Shown here: in pieces, positions 36,941-50,922 of the stretch
Layout: every line of letters starts with the position of its first letter
Position numbering within the stretch: the first letter of the stretch is position 1
Source: a virus
Taxonomy: Duplodnaviria > Caudoviricetes
Strand: one strand, 5' to 3'
Virus record (IMG/VR): IMGVR_UViG_3300025000_000055
DNA: 64,000 nucleotides
Translations under genes and position numbers: made by a program
Notes under the pieces: generated by a model
What the model was told of the DNA's origin: nothing
Databases searched by the model: none
What the model saw: the letters and a program-made list of their open reading frames with translations, nothing else

Positions 36941-37135
36941 TTAAAAATCTGTTTTCATTATTGTTTCTCTAAGCCAAAGCACAGTTTCATCTAATTTTGT
37001 AATAGTTATTGATTTCTCTCTAGAGTTTGGTAATTCATTAAGCTTTTCATACAACTCAACTAAAACCTCATCAAATTCATCTAACTTATGGTTTATAGAA
37101 GCATTAGTTGTGCAACCATTATTCAATCTCGGCAT
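36941..37135 (-). CDS. Acb2/Tad1-like small helical protein (candidate anti-defence nucleotide sponge)
   Basis: LPNSREKSITITKLDETVLW resembles the P.SREKS.A.TKL.E..MW pattern of the Acb2/Tad1 family. Confidence 0.5.
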   Translation of the reverse strand: MPRLNNGCTTNASINHKLDEFDEVLVELYEKLNELPNSREKSITITKLDETVLWLRETIMKTDF

Positions 37136-38902: not shown

Positions 38903-41900
38903 TTAAATATCTTCTTCTATACCATTCATTTTAATTTTAATATAAAAAAGATTTGTATTTTCATTCTCTTTCCTTTTAACTTGGAATTTATTATTAATTT
39001 CTCTTATAGTATTAATTCTATCTAAATATTCTTCTTCATTATCATAGTCAATTGAAACAAAACAACTATTAGGTTCATCTTCCTTACAATATTTAAATAA
39101 ATCTTTCTCAAATAAACATTTAAAACTTTCTGGTTCTCTTGAATCATCAAAGAATAAACCATGAGTTTTACAAAAAGGAGTTATAATACCACTAGTGCCT
39201 GGATCTGTTATGTTCACATAGGTCGTTAATCTATGCAGTTCTCTTAAGAACTTCCCTAAGATTTCCCTAGGATACCAGACTATATCATTAACCTAAATTT
39301 ATTAGGTTACTTCCCACTTCGATTTAAGGGATTCTCACCCACCTACTTAGGCCCTACTCCTATTGCTTATTTCAAAGCCAAAAGGGATAGTCGTTGAACT
39401 TTATTGTTATAATTAATAAGTGTAATCTTTTGATATGTGTACCCATGAAGTTCTTTTTCTTAAATGTTTAACCAAACCCCTATAAGATTCATTTTGTTTT
39501 TTGTCTTTAACTATCATATTCATCTCCTTTCTTATCTCATATTCAGAATAACCTTTTTCTAATAAAATACATATCCCACGAATTAATGTTTCTGAATATT
39601 TATTACATCCATGTCTTTCACCTTTAACTGGTTTTTGTAACCCTTCTCTCCATGAATGATCAATATTTTCTTTAGGAGTACTCCATTCTAAATTTTTATA
39701 AAAATTATTAGTTTTATTAGTATCTTTATGATTTATATGAATATATTTTTCATTAAAAAACACTTTTAATGGTAGAAAATAATATCCGACTAATCTATGT
39801 ATATAAAATTTTCTTTGTTTTTTGTATCCTTTTAGCGTACATCTTAAATAACCATCCTTATCAGTAAAAGGACTTAAAAATCTACCAGTTAATTTATTTC
39901 TAACCTTACCATAATTACTAATTTCGTATATATTTTTAACATTATATTCTATAATATCTTTCCATTCTTCTTCATGGGGTTTAATAAATATTATCATTTA
40001 ATACACACCTCTTAACATATAACAATCTTAGCTGCGGATTACTCAATCCTAAAACCTTGTTACCATACCTTAGTTGATTAGACTAAGCCACTATATTGTT
40101 TCCGATATAGTTTGGTAGTTTTAGGCTATAAGAGATTTCCCGACAATTAAAGAAGTTTTCATCATAAGTTACCCTATAATGCTCCAATCCAGTAGAGTTA
40201 CCGCATACGTTAATATCGAGCTTCCCAATGTAAGATGGATGAATATCACGATATTTTTTTGATATCCTATTGTCATTCTTACCACCCAAACTATTCGGAC
40301 CTTTAATAGTATATCTTAGTTTACTAAAAAAATCCATATCATTTATTTTATCCGTTGTGTTCACATTACTCGTCAAATAATGCAGTTCTCTTATGAACTT
40401 CCCTAAGTTTCCCTAGGATACCAGACTATATCTTCATCCTTAATTAAGTTAATTACTCTCATTTAAGGAGCTCCCCGTTTTAACTCACCATTATAGACTT
40501 GTGAGATTACTCTACTTCATATGTTAATTTCTATAACATATTTTTCGATAGTCTTTGAACTTTCACCTTTATATAATTTTTTCCAAGATCTCCCTGATTT
40601 GATATTACTCATTAAAGTATAAAGATTTCTAATTTCCCTTTTTGATAAATTATTTAAACCTAGTTTATCAATTATCTTTTTATGTTTTAATCCTTGTTTC
40701 ATAAACTTAATTATATTTCTTATTAATTCTTCATCATATCTTTTTTGTTTACATTTATTCAAATCAATATTTTCGGTTAAATAAATTCGTGTTCTTTTAG
40801 CTCTTAAATCATTTATAAATGTACGTATATTTTTTTTATTTTCTAAATTTAATTCATAAATTATAATATCAGTACTTTTATTTTCTTGTAATAAAGATAC
40901 TATTTGTTTAGATAATTTATCCGAGAATTTACTTAAAGGATGTTTTTCTCCAATAGGTTTATTTCCTTCCTTATATGAATACGCAATATTTTCTTTCTGA
41001 GTACATTTTTCTAAAAGATCTAATTTATTAAATTTATTTATACTATCTTTATGATGAATTATCATTGATTTATCAGATATATTAAAATCTGACATAAAAT
41101 AATAAGCTAATAATCTATGAATTAAAAAATTTCTAAATTTACCATCTATACATGATAATTGAATATATTCGTATTCTTTAGTATTTTTAGAATTTTTTAA
41201 AATCCTATTAAATTTATCATTTCTAATAAATCCATCAGAATTTATAGAATAATTCTTTTTAACTTGGGGCAAATCTATTTTTACCCAATCTTCTTTTTTC
41301 ATATCTTTCTCTTTTCTTTATATAATTTTTATTTTTCTTGGAAAATATATCTTTATAAAGGTTATTAGCTGCGGATTGTCCAATCCTTACTGTTATTACT
41401 ATACCAGGTTAATTACTCCTGCCACTATAATATCACTATTATAGATTAGTAAGTAAGGCCCTAAGGAGTTCCCCGACAATTAAAGAAGATTCTTTACAAT
41501 ATTACTACTGTAAAGGACAGTATCTATCAAATCTTAATAATCCTGAATCATGTAAATTCTGAATTAGCATATCTCCAGGAAATTTAAATATTTCTTCAAT
41601 ATTTTCTAAAGTCATTTTTTTACCTAAACTAATAACTCTATTCATTCTTTTACTAAATGCTTTAGTTAATAAAGAAGCAATATATTCATTACATCTTAAT
41701 CTTTTATTATCTATAGACATATTATCTTTCTTTCTTAATTCATCAAAATTTTGAATCATCCATCTGATAACAGAATAAACATTCTTTCGATGTTCATAAT
41801 CTATCTTTAATATATTCTTAGTTGTTTCATCTATTAATCTATCAAAGAAGATTAAAGTATTTAATCCTTTCTCATAGTAGTTATAAGCCATAGTAGCACT

Positions 41901-42758
41901 TAAACTTCCAATACGACCAATCCAATATTCAATATCATTTAAAAATTCAAAACTTAATCTATTATTAGAAACATTCATAATCATGAAAACTATACTCTGC
42001 ACATATAGATATTTGTTAAAGAAGAATCTATTTACTTTTATTAACATTTTCTTATTAATACGAAAATATATATATTTGTCTAAATCTGTTTCATTTTCTG
42101 TAAATTCTATAATAGAATCAACTGAAAAATATTTAAGTGTTTTTTCAACACCCATTTTAGCAAAATAAAATAAAAGTACATCGACTTCTTTTCTAAACAC
42201 AAATACCCCATAAGTATTAGCAATATAAGTTTCTCCCTGAGTATCTGGATATTCCTTTTTGTTTCTTTTTAACGACAATGGCATTAATGATTTTAAAATT
42301 AAATTTTGTTTGGTTGTATAAGTTGAACTATCAACAAGTTGATATATTAAGAAGTATTTTTTACCTTTAATAGTGTAATATCCATTTTCATCTGGAATTG
42401 GTACTAATAATTTCTTAGTATATAATTTGCTTTTATTTTTACAATTTAGATTAAATTTTAATTTTAGTTCACCATAGCGACTATCTTGTAAATACATATA
42501 TTTTTCTGTAACTTTTTTATTATCAGCATCCTTAGTCTGTTTAACTTTTTGTCTTGTTGATATATAGTCATTAATATCAATTTTAGATTCATCATCAATG
42601 AATTCATATCCAAGAAACTTAATATTTTTAAGAATTTCTAATGACTTACAACTATTGACGATATAATTAATCAAATTATCATCATGAGTATGATTAATTA
42701 TATCATAGTTGATTCTTTCTTCATTAGGATTCCTATAATGTTTTATAAACTTTTTCAT
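38903..42758 (-). CDS. rpoB: Phage RNA polymerase beta-like N-terminal subunit (probably non-virion), join(42758..41526,40352..40194,39205..38903), about 564 aa
   Basis: YFLIYQLVD, restored LLRFD|DKIND..KGPNSLG and CGNS|DPGTSG, typical of phiKZ/AR9 split beta subunits. Confidence 0.85.
39206..40193 (-). mobile_element. Group I intron with HNH ORF; terminal nucleotide A instead of G
   Basis: Family core. P1: exon CUCU pairs with GGAG. The 3' end is GTGAACATAACA|GAT. Confidence 0.88.
39413..39997 (-). CDS. Intron-encoded NUMOD4/HNH homing endonuclease
   Basis: YEISNYG, IHRLVG, INHKDTNKTNN..NLEW. Confidence 0.9.
   Translation of the reverse strand: MIIFIKPHEEEWKDIIEYNVKNIYEISNYGKVRNKLTGRFLSPFTDKDGYLRCTLKGYKKQRKFYIHRLVGYYFLPLKVFFNEKYIHINHKDTNKTNNFYKNLEWSTPKENIDHSWREGLQKPVKGERHGCNKYSETLIRGICILLEKGYSEYEIRKEMNMIVKDKKQNESYRGLVKHLRKRTSWVHISKDYTY
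40353..41525 (-). mobile_element. Group I intron with HNH ORF in the beta-N gene
   Basis: AATTGTCGGG, AATCCGCAGC, GTTCAAAGACTA, AAGATATAGTCT; ends GTGAACACAACG. Confidence 0.9.
40517..41302 (-). CDS. Intron-encoded HNH homing endonuclease
   Basis: YSINSDG, IHRLLA, IHHKDSINKFN. The ORF 3' end overlaps the ribozyme P7 5' strand. Confidence 0.88.
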   Translation of the reverse strand: MKKEDWVKIDLPQVKKNYSINSDGFIRNDKFNRILKNSKNTKEYEYIQLSCIDGKFRNFLIHRLLAYYFMSDFNISDKSMIIHHKDSINKFNKLDLLEKCTQKENIAYSYKEGNKPIGEKHPLSKFSDKLSKQIVSLLQENKSTDIIIYELNLENKKNIRTFINDLRAKRTRIYLTENIDLNKCKQKRYDEELIRNIIKFMKQGLKHKKIIDKLGLNNLSKREIRNLYTLMSNIKSGRSWKKLYKGESSKTIEKYVIEINI

Positions 42759-48035: not shown

Positions 48036-50922
48036 TCATACTTTAATATCAATAACGAACATTTCTTCTTTAATTCTTCGTCTCTCAACTTCTTCATCTA
48101 AAAGTTTTTCGAAATCTTTTGTAGTACCAACAAATACTTTATTTTCCTTATATTCATTAATAATGTCTATTCGTCTTTTAATATCTTTAAATTCTTCATT
48201 ATTACTTATAAAGAATTTTCCATCATAAAATTTACCTTCAAGAAACCCAGTATTAATATCTATATCAAATAATTCATTATTAAATTCAATTTTTAAACCC
48301 ATAGATTTCAAAAAGGCTCCTAATATTTCAATATTTCTATTTTTAAAATTTGGTTTATATTTAAAATCTTTTATAGGGTTTAATCTTGTCATTAAATTTT
48401 CACCTAAATTACGTCTACCTATAACAGATGACCTATAAAATAAATGTAGTTGAGCTATTAGTTCAGTTGGAACACCTATATTAGTATTAAGATTTTCATC
48501 AATACCAATTCTTATAGGAGTCTTAGAATATAATTCCTGATGAGTTTTAGCCTTATTAGATTTTTCAGGTAAACCTTTTCTAGATAAAGTTCCAGTTGAT
48601 CTAGCTGAAAAACCTTTCTTAGCTGTTTGCATTAATTTCATTACATACATATCACCAACTACTAACTTTTTCATCATTTTAATTTTCCTACCAAATCTAT
48701 TTGTATAAACATCATATTGTTCAATCCAATCATGTTCTTCATATAATTGAATAAGTTTATCAAATAAAAATTCTTCTTCCCATAAAGGAGGTATATGAAT
48801 AAATACACCTTCTTCAACTAAATTATTAAAAAATTCTTCTTTACTAATAACACTTAATCTCTTTAAATATTGTCTTAATTTTTCTTCTTGGTCTTTATTA
48901 AAATAACTTATTATATTAAGAAATAAATCTTCCTTTTCTTTTATGTCAGTCATTGTTTGAATACGTTCTACAGTTCTATTACAAATAAAAGTAATTGATT
49001 GTTCAAAAAGCTGGTATGAGTTTACAATTGTTTTAGACCATATCTTCATCTCAAATGAGATGCCTCCCGTTTCGGGTTTCCCCTACTCTACTTACTTCTT
49101 CAGTTATAAGTAAATTATAACCTATGCTTTCGATGGTCGTTGAGCATATTTCAAATATTAATATTTGAAACTTCGCTGCGGATTATTCAATCTTAAACCT
49201 TTTTACCATACCTGAGTAATTACTTCAGCCCTTATCTATATGTCACCATGATAAGTTGGTAGATTAAGATTAGCGAACTTTCCCGCAATTAGAGAGGTTT
49301 TAAATCGCCTAAACCTTACCAGTCCAGCGATTGATCACAGATAAACTGTTAAACAGAAGGTCTACACGTTCTCCAGTTTCTAAAAATGGCATCTCATCAT
49401 CAGGTAATATCTTTGATATAACACCTTTGTTACCATATCTCGTTGTATTCACATAGAACGTTAATCTATGCAGTTCTCTCATGAACTTCCCTAGTTTTCA
49501 CTAAGATACTAGACTATATCATTAACCTAAATAAATTAGGTTACTTCCTATTTCGATTTAAGGGATTCTCACCCACCTACTTAGGCCCTACTCCTATTGT
49601 ACATTGCAGTACCTAAGGGATAGTCGTTGAACTTTATTCCTTATATAAGGAATCTTAGCTGCGGATTACTCAATCTTTTAATAATATAAATATTATTAAA
49701 AGCTCTAAGAGCCTCCCCGACAATTAAAGAAGTTTTCTATATATGTCACCACATATAGGGGCTAAGCTATGTAACCCGTTACTTTCTGACCCACTTCTAA
49801 ATAGGCATCTTTTTCAACTAAAAATTCTATTACTATATTGGAAAATACTGAGTTATTTTCTTCTCTCCATTTATATTTTTCGTCTAATATATTTTTTGCT
49901 TTTCTCATATAAAAACTTATTTCTCTAGAATATTTAGAACCAGAATCAATTATCTGTTTACATCTTTTAAATATTCTTTCATAATAAACTAATTGCATTT
50001 TATAATATTTCATTATCTGTCTATTAAAATCATTCTCTTCCAATTCATCTAAAGTTTTATTACAATATATATCTATATCAATAATTTTACCTTTACCTTC
50101 AATAAAGAATAATACATCAGAAGTAAAATCAATCTTTCTAAGATTAGATTTCTTTAAATCATATAATAATTGATTATTATGAATTCTCCTCTTAGCACAA
50201 ATTATTTTATCCTTAACATATTCGTTTATATCAGGAAATGTCTTATAATTATTACCATTCCCATATATATTACAAAAGATATCATTATCATTTAATGAAA
50301 CTTTAACTCTCTCAACTTCTGTTGAAACCATTCTTCTTGATAATGATTCTGAACATACAATAGCATCTTCAATAGTATTATTCTCTAAAAGATACATAAA
50401 CTTAACATTAGCACCATAACAATAATTCATATCTTCATCATAAGAAGAACTCTTATAAAGAACTTCTCCTTTATATATTGAAGTCCCAACTTCTTTATTA
50501 TCAATATTATCAGTATTATATTTGAAACCATATCTTTCTGTTAAATCTTCAACGTTTTTCTTTTCTATAATATCATATTGGTCATTTTCTTTATCATATA
50601 TGAATAATAAATATATTTGTTCTTCATTTTCACCATCTGTAAACTTACTAATTTTATCAATAATAACACAATCATTTTTAACTTTTTTATAACCAGTTGA
50701 ATTCTTACCAACTATATTTTCATAATTAGTAAAAATTCTTGGAAATTCGGGATTATTTAGAGTAACACATTGCTTCAAGTGAGCTGTAAACATAATATTT
50801 CTTGATGAACTAATATAACCTGGATTTGTTAAAAGAGTCATCCCAAATATATCATCTTTACCTTTAAACTCCTTTTCTTTTTCTTGTAATATTTCTTTCA
50901 ATGACATTGTAGTTTTATACAA
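48036..50922 (-). CDS. rpoB: Phage RNA polymerase beta-like C-terminal subunit (probably non-virion), join(50922..49774,49440..49326,49024..48036), about 750 aa
   Basis: Splicing restores KVTG|RYGNKGV (GRHGNKG motif) and INRL|NSYQLFE (SRMN.GQ..E motif; phase-1 junction T|TA). VGDMYVMKL...ARSTG follows. Confidence 0.9.
49025..49325 (-). mobile_element. Divergent ORF-less group I intron, apparently lacking P9
   Basis: AATTGCGGG, AATCCGCAGC, CTCAACGACCA, AAGATATGGTCT. P1: exon AAUCGCU pairs with GGCGAUU. Only 10 nt separate P7 from the terminal G. Confidence 0.85.
49441..49773 (-). mobile_element. ORF-less family group I intron in the beta-C gene
   Basis: P1: exon GGGU pairs with GCCC; ends GTGAATACAACG. 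Confidence 0.93.

What the first reader, a model, noticed from the sequence alone, without database searches (positions are those of the whole stretch)
39196..39225. Group I intron ending in A rather than the universal omega-G inside an RNAP gene
Seen: nine siblings end GTG/ATG-AAY-NNN-NCG, whereas this one ends GTG-AAC-ATA-ACA followed by GAT CCA GGC. The conserved NS|DPG motif needs splicing after A39206; using the next G would frameshift to a stop within about 8 codons. The P7 strands look unaltered. Established: omega-G is nearly invariant, with rare omega-A exceptions (e.g. some hexacoral mitochondrial ND5 introns). Inference: non-canonical 3' splice-site use, deliberately inefficient splicing, or a sequence error.
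Basis: partly seen in the sequence, partly recalled or inferred. Interest (0 to 1): 0.7.

Follow-up and report, generated by a model that had tools for sequence, protein, structure and literature searches.

The report
Phage self-splicing intron ending in A
A mobile self-splicing (group I) intron in an essential RNA polymerase gene of an uncultured groundwater giant phage really ends in A, not the almost universal G; this rare exception was known before only from coral mitochondria and Coxiella.

Summary

- **The intron.** It spans window 40193..39206 on the minus strand, is 988 nt long, and carries a NUMOD4-HNH endonuclease gene in its P6 loop. It interrupts the AR9-type RNA polymerase beta-N gene inside the invariant motif CGNS|DPG.
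- **Junction from proteins.** Twenty-three uninterrupted homologues and two intron-less sister alleles require ligation at TCT|GAT. That makes A39206 the last intron base.
- **Junction from RNA.** The internal guide pairs with the ligated exons over 11 contiguous base pairs (P1 4 bp, P10 7 bp). A covarying pair between J7/9 and the base before the terminus puts the terminus at A39206. It argues against G39205 and C39207, but not against G39215.
- **The base is real.** Four other assemblies and a depth-14 unitig also show the A.
- **Family context.** Of 38 distinct tails in this intron family, 36 end in G. The second exception is this intron's closest relative, at another site of the same gene in a sister phage.
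- **Core and exon.** The G-binding pair in P7 is unchanged. The downstream exon is under purifying selection (dN/dS 0.16).

Splicing itself is not shown, because no RNA data exist. This is a new member of the rare omega-A class and, to my knowledge, the first from a phage.

The parts
41526..42758 (-). Exon 1 of the RNA polymerase beta-N gene (411 codons from ATG 42758)
   Evidence: It is 91-95% identical to L002, L003 and L042, where it continues directly into exon 2. Homologue P0017 matches the AR9 RNA polymerase beta subunit, PDB 7S00 chain c, at E 1e-68.
40353..41525 (-). Sibling intron i41 with its own NUMOD4-type endonuclease ORF; it ends in a canonical omega-G (G40353)
   Evidence: It is absent from L002/L003, whose sequence TTT GAT GAT AAA fixes the junction at GAT|...ACAACG|GAT. 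NUMOD4 is a weak Pfam hit.
40194..40352 (-). Exon 2 (53 codons, DKINDM...CGNS)
   Evidence: Translation and alignment to 23 homologues.
39206..40193 (-). The group I intron in question (988 nt), ending in A39206
   Evidence: The boundaries follow from the intron-less alleles L002 and L041/L042, and from protein colinearity. Its core aligns with the Rfam-positive siblings.
40182..40197 (-). P1 hairpin. The 5' exon CUCU (40197-40194) pairs with the guide GGAG (40185-40182), with the wobble U40194.G40185 at the 5' splice site. The P10 strand CUGGAUU is 40192-40186.
   Evidence: Read directly from the sequence and scored: 4 bp of P1 plus 7 bp of P10, contiguous, duplex energy -16.6 kcal/mol.
39199..39205 (-). 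First seven bases of the 3' exon (GAUCCAG). They form P10 with intron bases 40192-40186.
   Evidence: The P10 of the eleven other family introns scored is 0-3 bp.
39413..39997 (-). Intron-encoded homing endonuclease ORF (194 aa) in the P6 loop
   Evidence: Pfam NUMOD4 at E 4e-12 and HNH_3 at E 3e-5. The P6 stem AUUGUUAUA/UAUAACAAU flanks the ORF. It is 69% identical in protein to the endonuclease of intron L002-A.
39387..39399 (-). R element and 5' strand of P7. G39392 is the G of the guanosine-binding G-C pair.
   Evidence: Identical to the siblings. The mapping of the G-binding pair follows established group I architecture and was done by eye.
39275..39286 (-). S element and 3' strand of P7 (C39278 pairs with G39392), followed by J7/9 (GG, 39276-39275)
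   Evidence: G39275, the second J7/9 base, covaries with the base before the terminal nucleotide across the family.
39206..39207 (-). C39207 (omega-1, paired with J7/9 G39275) and A39206 (the terminal omega nucleotide)
   Evidence: The A is also present in L037-L040 and in a Logan unitig spanning 39128-39240.
38903..39205 (-). Exon 3 (100 codons plus stop, DPGTSGIITPF...)
   Evidence: The frame is open. dN/dS is 0.16 against two sister alleles, and none of 20,000 random 100-codon strings of local composition lacked a stop.

Best explanation
The element is an intact, mobile group I intron with a phage-type core (P, Q, R and S elements, and P7.1/7.2-like inserts). It carries a NUMOD4-HNH homing endonuclease gene in P6. 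Its 3'-terminal nucleotide is A (omega-A), and exon ligation takes place after A39206.

**Step 1** should be ordinary. Exogenous G, bound at the unchanged G-C pair of P7, attacks after U40194, which is held in P1 by a U.G wobble.

**Step 2** must place A39206 in a pocket built for G. I infer that two things position it there:
- the P9.0-type pair C39207:G39275;
- an unusually long P10, in which seven 3'-exon bases pair with the guide and stack directly on P1. This also keeps the neighbouring G39205 out of the pocket.

Ligation is therefore probably slower than in the omega-G siblings, or helped by a protein. It still yields the in-frame ...CGNS-DPGTSG... polymerase subunit.

**Shown here:** the base is real, the junction is fixed, the core is intact, and the downstream exon is under selection. 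**Inferred:** that splicing occurs at all, that P10 and P9.0 compensate for the missing G, and that the second step is slow.
For: 1. **Junction.** L002/L003 read ...GGC AAT TCA GAT CCT straight across the site, and L041/L042 read GGT AAC TCA GAT CCT GGA. All 23 homologues keep CG[NT]-S/T-D/S-PG with no insertion or deletion. AR9 beta has ...AGDPGASG in the same register.
2. **Guide pairing.** The guide 5'-CUGGAUUGGAG pairs with the ligated exons CUCU|GAUCCAG over 11 contiguous bp at -16.6 kcal/mol. Eleven other family introns give -1.2 to -8.5 kcal/mol and 0-3 bp of P10.
3. **Family alignment.** A39206 lies in the omega column. Of 38 distinct tails, 36 have G there.
4. **Covariation.** The second J7/9 base pairs with omega-1 in 35 of 36 omega-G introns (C:G 31, A:U 1, U:A 2, U.G 1; permutation p 7e-4). 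In this intron the rule is met with omega = A39206 and also with G39215 (a U.G pair), but fails for G39205 and C39207.
5. **The base is real.** The same A appears in contigs from JGI 3300025010, JGI 3300001242, ENA ERZ27254731 and ENA ERZ909591. One of these differs from the window at three other positions. A Logan unitig of depth 14.4 spans the site with no differences, and no alternative letter is listed at 39206 in four runs.
6. **The lineage is viable.** In the same samples the omega-A strain is about as deep as the co-occurring relative in one sample and deeper in the other: 9-31x against 12-15x.
7. **Selection on exon 3.** dN/dS is 0.16, and 0.17 on the window's own branch. The frame is open over 100 codons at 24% G+C.
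8. **Single copy.** The complete 250-kb relative has one detectable copy of the gene.
9. **A second case.** The closest relative intron, L002-A (identical at 77% of 995 aligned columns over the full length, near-identical P3-P6, homologous endonuclease), sits at AAA GGT|CCG AAT in a sister phage. The window is intron-less there and Pro is invariant in 23 of 23 homologues, so its last base is also not G.
10. **Precedent.** The omega-A intron ND5-717 gives perfectly ligated exons in vivo (PMC6545197, PMC8146996).
Against: - There are no RNA data, so neither splicing nor the exact junction has been observed.
- The G-binding pair is unchanged. From memory of the Tetrahymena work (G414A mutants; Michel 1989; Been and Perrotta 1991), a terminal A in a G pocket should ligate very poorly.
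- A G follows immediately (G39205) and could compete, giving a frameshifted mRNA.
- Intron L002-A has only a 2-bp P10, so a long P10 cannot be the general compensation.
- All the assemblies come from one aquifer campaign, and probably from overlapping read sets.
Confidence: 0.65

Rival explanations
1. The A is a disabling mutation. The intron carries out step 1 at best and ligates poorly or not at all. The allele would then persist only because co-infecting intron-less strains supply the beta-N subunit.
For: - The G pocket is unchanged.
- Related strains that lack this intron co-occur in the same samples.
- Omega-G is required for efficient ligation in model ribozymes (from memory).
Against: - The allele is in five assemblies. 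In the two samples laid it is about as deep as the sister strain in one and deeper in the other.
- Exon 3 is intact, and its constraint is the same on the window's branch as on the others.
- The endonuclease ORF, the intron core, P1 and P10 all look fully maintained.
- A second intron of the lineage shows the same feature at another site.
Confidence: 0.12
2. The ribozyme uses the conserved G of GUG nine bases upstream (G39215) as its terminal nucleotide. That would give an in-frame product with three extra residues, CGNS-NIT-DPG.
For: The nine bases AAC ATA ACA are in frame with exon 3. U39216 could form a wobble pair with the J7/9 base.
Against: - All 36 omega-G siblings have the same (G/A)UGAA block and do not splice there.
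- P10 would begin nine bases away from the splice site.
- The motif shows no length variation in 23 homologues or in AR9.
Confidence: 0.08
3. G39205 is the true terminal nucleotide. The product would then be either frameshifted and truncated after NSIQALVVL, or rescued by a shifted 5' splice site (AAC T|AT giving NYPG, or TCTA|AT giving NSNPG).
For: It is the nearest G. P10 would still have 6 bp (AUCCAG/CUGGAU).
Against: - It breaks the invariant SDPG motif or the reading frame.
- A39206 would then be omega-1 and cannot pair with G39275, whereas 35 of 36 siblings pair there.
- The alternative 5' sites do not fit the guide, whose position just before P2 matches the siblings.
- Exon 3 is under purifying selection.
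Confidence: 0.05
4. Both splice sites lie one base to the left: 5' exon ...AACTC|, last intron base C39207. The product AAC TCA GAT would be identical to the intron-less alleles.
For: The intron-less alleles read TCA GAT, so this reading reproduces them letter for letter.
Against: - It needs C at -1 (no U.G wobble) and a terminal C, so two non-canonical features instead of one.
- A39208 would be omega-1 and cannot pair with G39275.
Confidence: 0.03
5. The A is a sequencing or assembly error.
For: None found.
Against: The same base is in four other contigs from different assemblies and in an independent unitig assembly at depth 14.4. No variant is listed at 39206.
Confidence: 0.01

Closest known systems
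Hexacoral mitochondrial ND5-717 group I intron (omega-A)
   Same: It ends in A with an otherwise canonical, compact catalytic core, lies in an essential protein-coding gene, and gives correct exon ligation in vivo (PMC6545197, PMC8146996). The explanation proposed for it, that omega-A suppresses 3' splice-site hydrolysis and circle formation, could apply here too.
   Different: - ND5-717 is obligatory, vertically inherited and immobile, carries host genes in P8, and probably depends on host factors.
- The phage intron is optional between strains and carries an intact homing endonuclease gene.
- The phage intron has dozens of omega-G siblings in the same genome.
Coxiella burnetii 23S rRNA group I introns (Raghavan et al. 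2007, J Bacteriol 189:6572)
   Same: This is a bacterial-world group I intron which, by the paper's title, self-splices although it 'lacks the canonical omegaG'. I saw only the title, in the reference lists of PMC11270868 and PMC3428280.
   Different: - It sits in rRNA rather than a protein-coding gene, and in a bacterial chromosome rather than a phage.
- I could not read the paper here. Which base replaces G, and how well the intron splices, are not verified.
Phage group IA2 introns (T4 td, nrdB and sunY; Twort orf142 introns)
   Same: They share the core elements P (AAUUG.CGGGAAA), Q (AAUCCGCAGC), R (GUUCAACGACUA) and S (GAUAUAGUC). They also share 3'-terminal P9.x extensions, an endonuclease ORF in a peripheral loop, and multiple introns in one gene. 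HEG-less siblings match Rfam RF00028 at 62-76 bits.
   Different: To my knowledge all of these end in omega-G.
PhiPA3 gp210 intron-encoded HNH endonuclease in a jumbo-phage RNA polymerase gene (PMC11620839)
   Same: A mobile group I intron with an HNH endonuclease inside a multisubunit RNA polymerase gene of a jumbo phage. Related co-occurring strains differ in intron occupancy.
   Different: That work concerns the endonuclease's role in competition between phages, not the 3' splice site. No non-canonical terminus is involved, to my knowledge; I read only its abstract here.

Membership tests
Group I intron (Rfam RF00028) | Conserved core elements P, Q, R and S, which form P4 and P7, plus P3, P6, P8 and P9 | tested here: met
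   TTAATTGTCGGG (40150-40139), AATCCGCAGC (40040-40031), GTTCAACGACTAT (39399-39387) and GATATAGTC (39286-39278) are all present. The core aligns without breaks to the siblings.
Group I intron (Rfam RF00028) | Score above the Rfam gathering threshold | tested here: inconclusive
   The intron itself gives only a 13-bit fragment, because about 630 nt of endonuclease gene sit in P6. HEG-less siblings with the same core score 62-76 bits against a threshold of 50.
Group I intron (Rfam RF00028) | U at -1 paired with G of the internal guide in P1 | tested here: met
   The U40194.G40185 wobble lies within CUCU/GGAG, and the guide lies directly before P2 as in the siblings.
Group I intron (Rfam RF00028) | G-C guanosine-binding pair in P7 | tested here: met
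   G39392 and C39278 are retained, and both strands are identical to the siblings. The pair was assigned by homology to the Tetrahymena G264-C311 arrangement, by eye.
Group I intron (Rfam RF00028) | Terminal guanosine (omega-G) | tested here: not met
   The terminal base is A39206. This feature is nearly universal but not strictly defining, since natural omega-A introns are accepted members (PMC8146996).
Group I intron (Rfam RF00028) | Self-splicing by two transesterifications | not testable with these tools
   No RNA run is listed for this sequence.
Natural omega-A group I introns (ND5-717 type) | Terminal A with an unchanged G-binding site | tested here: met
Natural omega-A group I introns (ND5-717 type) | Correct exon ligation after the A | not testable with these tools
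   Only inferred, from protein colinearity and selection on exon 3.
NUMOD4-HNH homing endonucleases | NUMOD4 motif plus HNH nuclease domain | tested here: met
   PF07463 at E 4e-12. PF13392 at E 3e-5, scoring 23.8 bits, just under its 24.8-bit cut-off.
AR9/PhiKZ-type split multisubunit RNA polymerase, beta N-terminal subunit | Sequence homology to a solved beta-N subunit, including the ...HPSY.G....DPG... motif | tested here: met
   Homologue P0017 (77% identical to exon 2) matches PDB 7S00 chain c at E 1e-68 over residues 6-490. PHROG 2943 'polymerase' matches at E 8e-32. The window's own exons gave no Pfam hit.

The most novel reading that the evidence does not exclude
A lineage of mobile phage group I introns, with two members at two sites of one polymerase gene, has given up omega-G while keeping a G-specific pocket. 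In this reading it defines its 3' splice site by P9.0 and, in this member, by an 11-bp guide-exon helix. The terminal A would be selected for, either to block 3' splice-site hydrolysis and circularisation or to throttle the ligation step, so that polymerase subunit supply or endonuclease expression is tuned. It would not be a tolerated defect.
Probability: 0.2. Interest if true: 0.75.

Novelty: new member of a known kind. Interest (0 to 1): 0.55.

Why it matters
**A natural experiment.** Omega-G is one of the very few near-invariant nucleotides of group I introns, and it is central to the single-G-site mechanism. Here a natural omega-A intron sits among at least 36 close omega-G relatives in the same phage genomes. 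Swapping one base, shortening P10 or breaking the P9.0 pair should show what lets a G-specific ribozyme ligate after an A.

**Annotation.** Tools that look for a terminal G would put the splice site one base off and frameshift an essential polymerase gene.

**Persistence.** The feature recurs in a sister intron at a second site, which suggests it can persist through intron movement.

Tried and rejected
- **Exact junction patterns in viral contigs**: no match.
- **Degenerate junction pattern in metagenome contigs**: three matches in unrelated 36-48% G+C contigs, taken as chance.
- **RNA evidence:** no RNA holder is listed, so expression and the spliced junction could not be checked.
- **Read laying** used Logan contigs, not raw reads. 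Many joints and loose ends come from cross-mapping between intron copies and were not interpreted.
- **Rfam on the intron itself** fails because of the endonuclease insert.
- **Exact look-up of P0001** found nothing; cluster members P0025, P0026 and P0027 were used instead.
- **Sub-lineage P4/P5 sequence in viral contigs** returned only intron L002-A again.
- **Distant endonuclease homologues** (38% identity or less) gave one sub-threshold group I hit and were not pursued.
- **The Coxiella papers** could not be opened (PMC2045182 and PMC3187410 are not held). 'Cbu.L1917' is not in the searchable library.
- **Whole genome:** none is held for the window.
- **A reading considered and rejected:** that exon 3 is translated on its own from the GTG in the intron tail, as gene callers did for P0025 and P0027. 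The GTG is part of a structural block shared by all siblings in varying frames. No Shine-Dalgarno sequence precedes it, and the split would fall inside an invariant active-site motif.

Full report
**What is at the site.** The window is 24-30% G+C and phage-like. Searches with the conserved group I elements found ten introns of one family. Three or four of the shorter members pass the Rfam RF00028 threshold at 62-76 bits. All ten family 3' ends were laid side by side. Nine end (G/A)TGAAY-NNNN-CG followed by exon. The intron at 40193..39206 (minus strand) ends GTGAAC-ATAA-CA followed by GATCCAGGC. A39206 occupies the column of the terminal G, and a G (39205) follows it.

**The host gene.**
- The three exons are 42758-41526, 40352-40194 and 39205-38906. 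Together they give a 564-residue protein.
- Its homologue P0017 matches the beta subunit of the Bacillus phage AR9 RNA polymerase (PDB 7S00 chain c) at E 1e-68, and PHROG 2943 'polymerase'.
- The intron splits the motif RDIHPSYIGKLDINVCGNS|DPGTSG. By eye this is the counterpart of the bacterial beta motif RDVHPSHYGR....ETPEG.
- A complete 250-kb relative has only one detectable copy of this gene.

**Where the exons must be joined.**
- *Homologues.* Twenty-three homologues recovered with exon 2 all read ...KGP[NS]......CG[NTS][ST][DS]PG... with no length variation.
- *Sister phages.* Three IMG/VR contigs carry the same gene at 91-94% identity. In L002/L003 the sequence runs uninterrupted across the site as GGC AAT TCA GAT CCT. 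In a third strain (L041/L042) it reads GGT AAC TCA GAT CCT GGA.
- *Consequence.* The window must be ligated as AAC TCT|GAT CCA GGC. Using G39205 gives a stop eight codons later.
- *One formal alternative.* Shifting both sites one base left gives TC|...C|AGAT. It encodes the same protein but needs C at -1 and a terminal C.

**RNA-level evidence for the same junction.**
- *P1.* The last exon bases CUCU pair with GGAG (40185-40182), which lies directly in front of P2 as in the siblings. The canonical wobble is U40194.G40185.
- *P10.* The seven guide bases just upstream, CUGGAUU (40192-40186), pair with the first seven bases of exon 3, GAUCCAG. The guide therefore reads the ligated exons over 11 contiguous pairs at -16.6 kcal/mol. 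Eleven other family introns give 0-3 bp of P10 and -1.2 to -8.5 kcal/mol.
- *Covariation.* Thirty-eight distinct 3' domains were collected from the window and three related genomes. In them, the second base after P7 (J7/9) covaries with the base before the terminus. In the 36 omega-G introns the pairs are C:G 31, U:A 2, A:U 1, U.G 1, with one mismatch (permutation p 7e-4).
- *What the covariation selects.* In this intron the pair C39207:G39275 forms with A39206 as the terminal base. It does not form if G39205 or C39207 is terminal. G39215 would also satisfy it, through a U.G wobble.

**Is the base real?** Gene calls that begin in the intron tail (P0025, P0027) led to four further contigs: JGI 3300025010, JGI 3300001242, ENA ERZ27254731 and ENA ERZ909591/SRR1658472. 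All read ...GAACATAACAGATCC. One differs from the window at three other positions. In Logan's independent assembly of the groundwater runs, a unitig of depth 14.4 spans 39128-39240 without a difference. No alternative letter is listed at 39206 in four runs from two samples. The strain is covered at 9-31x. That is similar to the co-occurring sister strain (12-15x) in one sample and higher in the other. Sequencing error is excluded as far as contig-level data allow. All these data come from one aquifer study.

**Is the gene still in use?** Exon 3 is open for 100 codons at about 24% G+C. None of 20,000 random strings of the same composition lacked a stop. Its dN/dS is 0.16 against both sister alleles, and about 0.17 on the window's own branch against about 0.14 on the others. 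The endonuclease ORF (NUMOD4 plus HNH), P1, P2, the P6 stem around the ORF, P7 and the P9 domain all look intact.

**A second case.**
- The closest relative of this intron is L002-A (L002:7285-8253). The two are identical at 77% of 995 aligned columns (blastn gives 80% over 952 nt) and almost identical from P3 to P6. The endonucleases are 69% identical in protein.
- It lies 105 nt upstream in the same gene of the sister phage, at AAA GGT|CCG AAT. The window is intron-less there, and the Pro codon is invariant in 23 of 23 homologues.
- Its tail GTGAATTAAAAA|CCG has the same length as this intron's. So its last base is A, or C if both sites shift by one base.
- Its J7/9 base is U, which pairs with the preceding A but not with the C of CCG.
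- Two of 38 family members thus lack omega-G, and they are each other's nearest relatives. Whether the A is inherited or convergent cannot be decided, because the family's peripheral domains are mosaic.

**Mechanism (inference).** Step 1 should be normal. Step 2 has to place an A in a G pocket, which in model ribozymes is strongly disfavoured (my recollection of the Tetrahymena G414A and G264:C311 work, not checked here). I propose that the P9.0 pair and the exceptional P10 hold A39206 and the scissile phosphate in place and sequester G39205. Ligation would then be correct but probably slow, or protein-assisted. L002-A has only a 2-bp P10, so this cannot be the whole story. ND5-717 shows that an omega-A intron can ligate correctly in vivo. 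[quoted passage not shown] The same benefit is conceivable here.

**What is known, and novelty.** Natural introns without omega-G are on record. ND5-717 of hexacorals has omega-A. One of the two Coxiella 23S rRNA introns lacks omega-G, but I could see only the paper's title. Mobile HNH introns in jumbo-phage polymerase genes are also known (PMC11620839). I found no report of a phage group I intron lacking omega-G, though the library search is limited. I therefore file this as a new member of a known rare class. It has the added value of many omega-G siblings in the same genome, a sister omega-A intron, and an outlier P10.

**Earlier notes of this scan.** Another first-stage note records the same terminal A, and a further one places the HNH genes in P6 loops. 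Neither changed my reading.

**Verdict.** An omega-A 3' splice site is the best reading (about 0.65). The main rivals are a poorly splicing or complemented allele (about 0.12) and use of an upstream in-frame G (about 0.08). Only RNA or in vitro splicing can settle it.

Noticed in passing
L002:7285-8253 (also in L003, L047 and L049): A second intron of the same sub-lineage, in a sister phage, also lacks a terminal G (tail GTGAATTAAAAA|CCG, at site AAA GGT|CCG). It has no P2 hairpin, and its guide GGGCCU reads AGGU|CC.
   Followed up: partly
window introns plus L002-L045 (38 distinct 3' domains): The first base after P7 (J7/9 position 1) pairs with the base after GAA in the conserved (G/A)UGAA-N tail in 38 of 38 introns (A:U 20, G:C 15, U:A 2, G.U 1). 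Together with the position-2:omega-1 pair, this topology cannot be a single antiparallel helix. It suggests two separate long-range contacts that anchor the 3' tail.
   Followed up: partly
window 40194-41525, compared with L002:7231-8763 and L042:2270-2716: Within about 170 nt of the beta-N gene, four intron sites are occupied differently in co-occurring strains. The window has i41 and i40. L002 has introns at GGT|CCG and at GAT CCT|GGA, the latter 6 nt downstream of the i40 site. L042 has i41 only. Silent differences cluster next to the sites, as expected for co-conversion.
   Followed up: partly
G003 (IMGVR_UViG_3300025000_000053, 249,853 bp, rated complete): Eighteen matches to the family's P9.1 motif in one complete phage genome, eight in a 75-kb fragment (G001), and ten in this 64-kb window. 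This is an unusually high group I intron load.
   Followed up: partly
window 49025-49325 (-): A divergent short intron (S element GATATGGTC at 49044-49036) lacks the family's P9-P9.2 tail. Another note of this scan already flags it.
   Followed up: no
window 36941-37135 (-), = L037:4583-4777: A 64-aa ORF with a weak precomputed Pfam hit to PF24729 (Acb2/Tad1 hairpin), which would make it a possible anti-defence sponge.
   Followed up: no
window 39215-39217 (-), proteins P0025 and P0027: Public gene calls start exon 3 at the GTG inside the intron tail (V/M-NITDPG...). So this polymerase gene is annotated in public collections as several unrelated small ORFs.
   Followed up: yes
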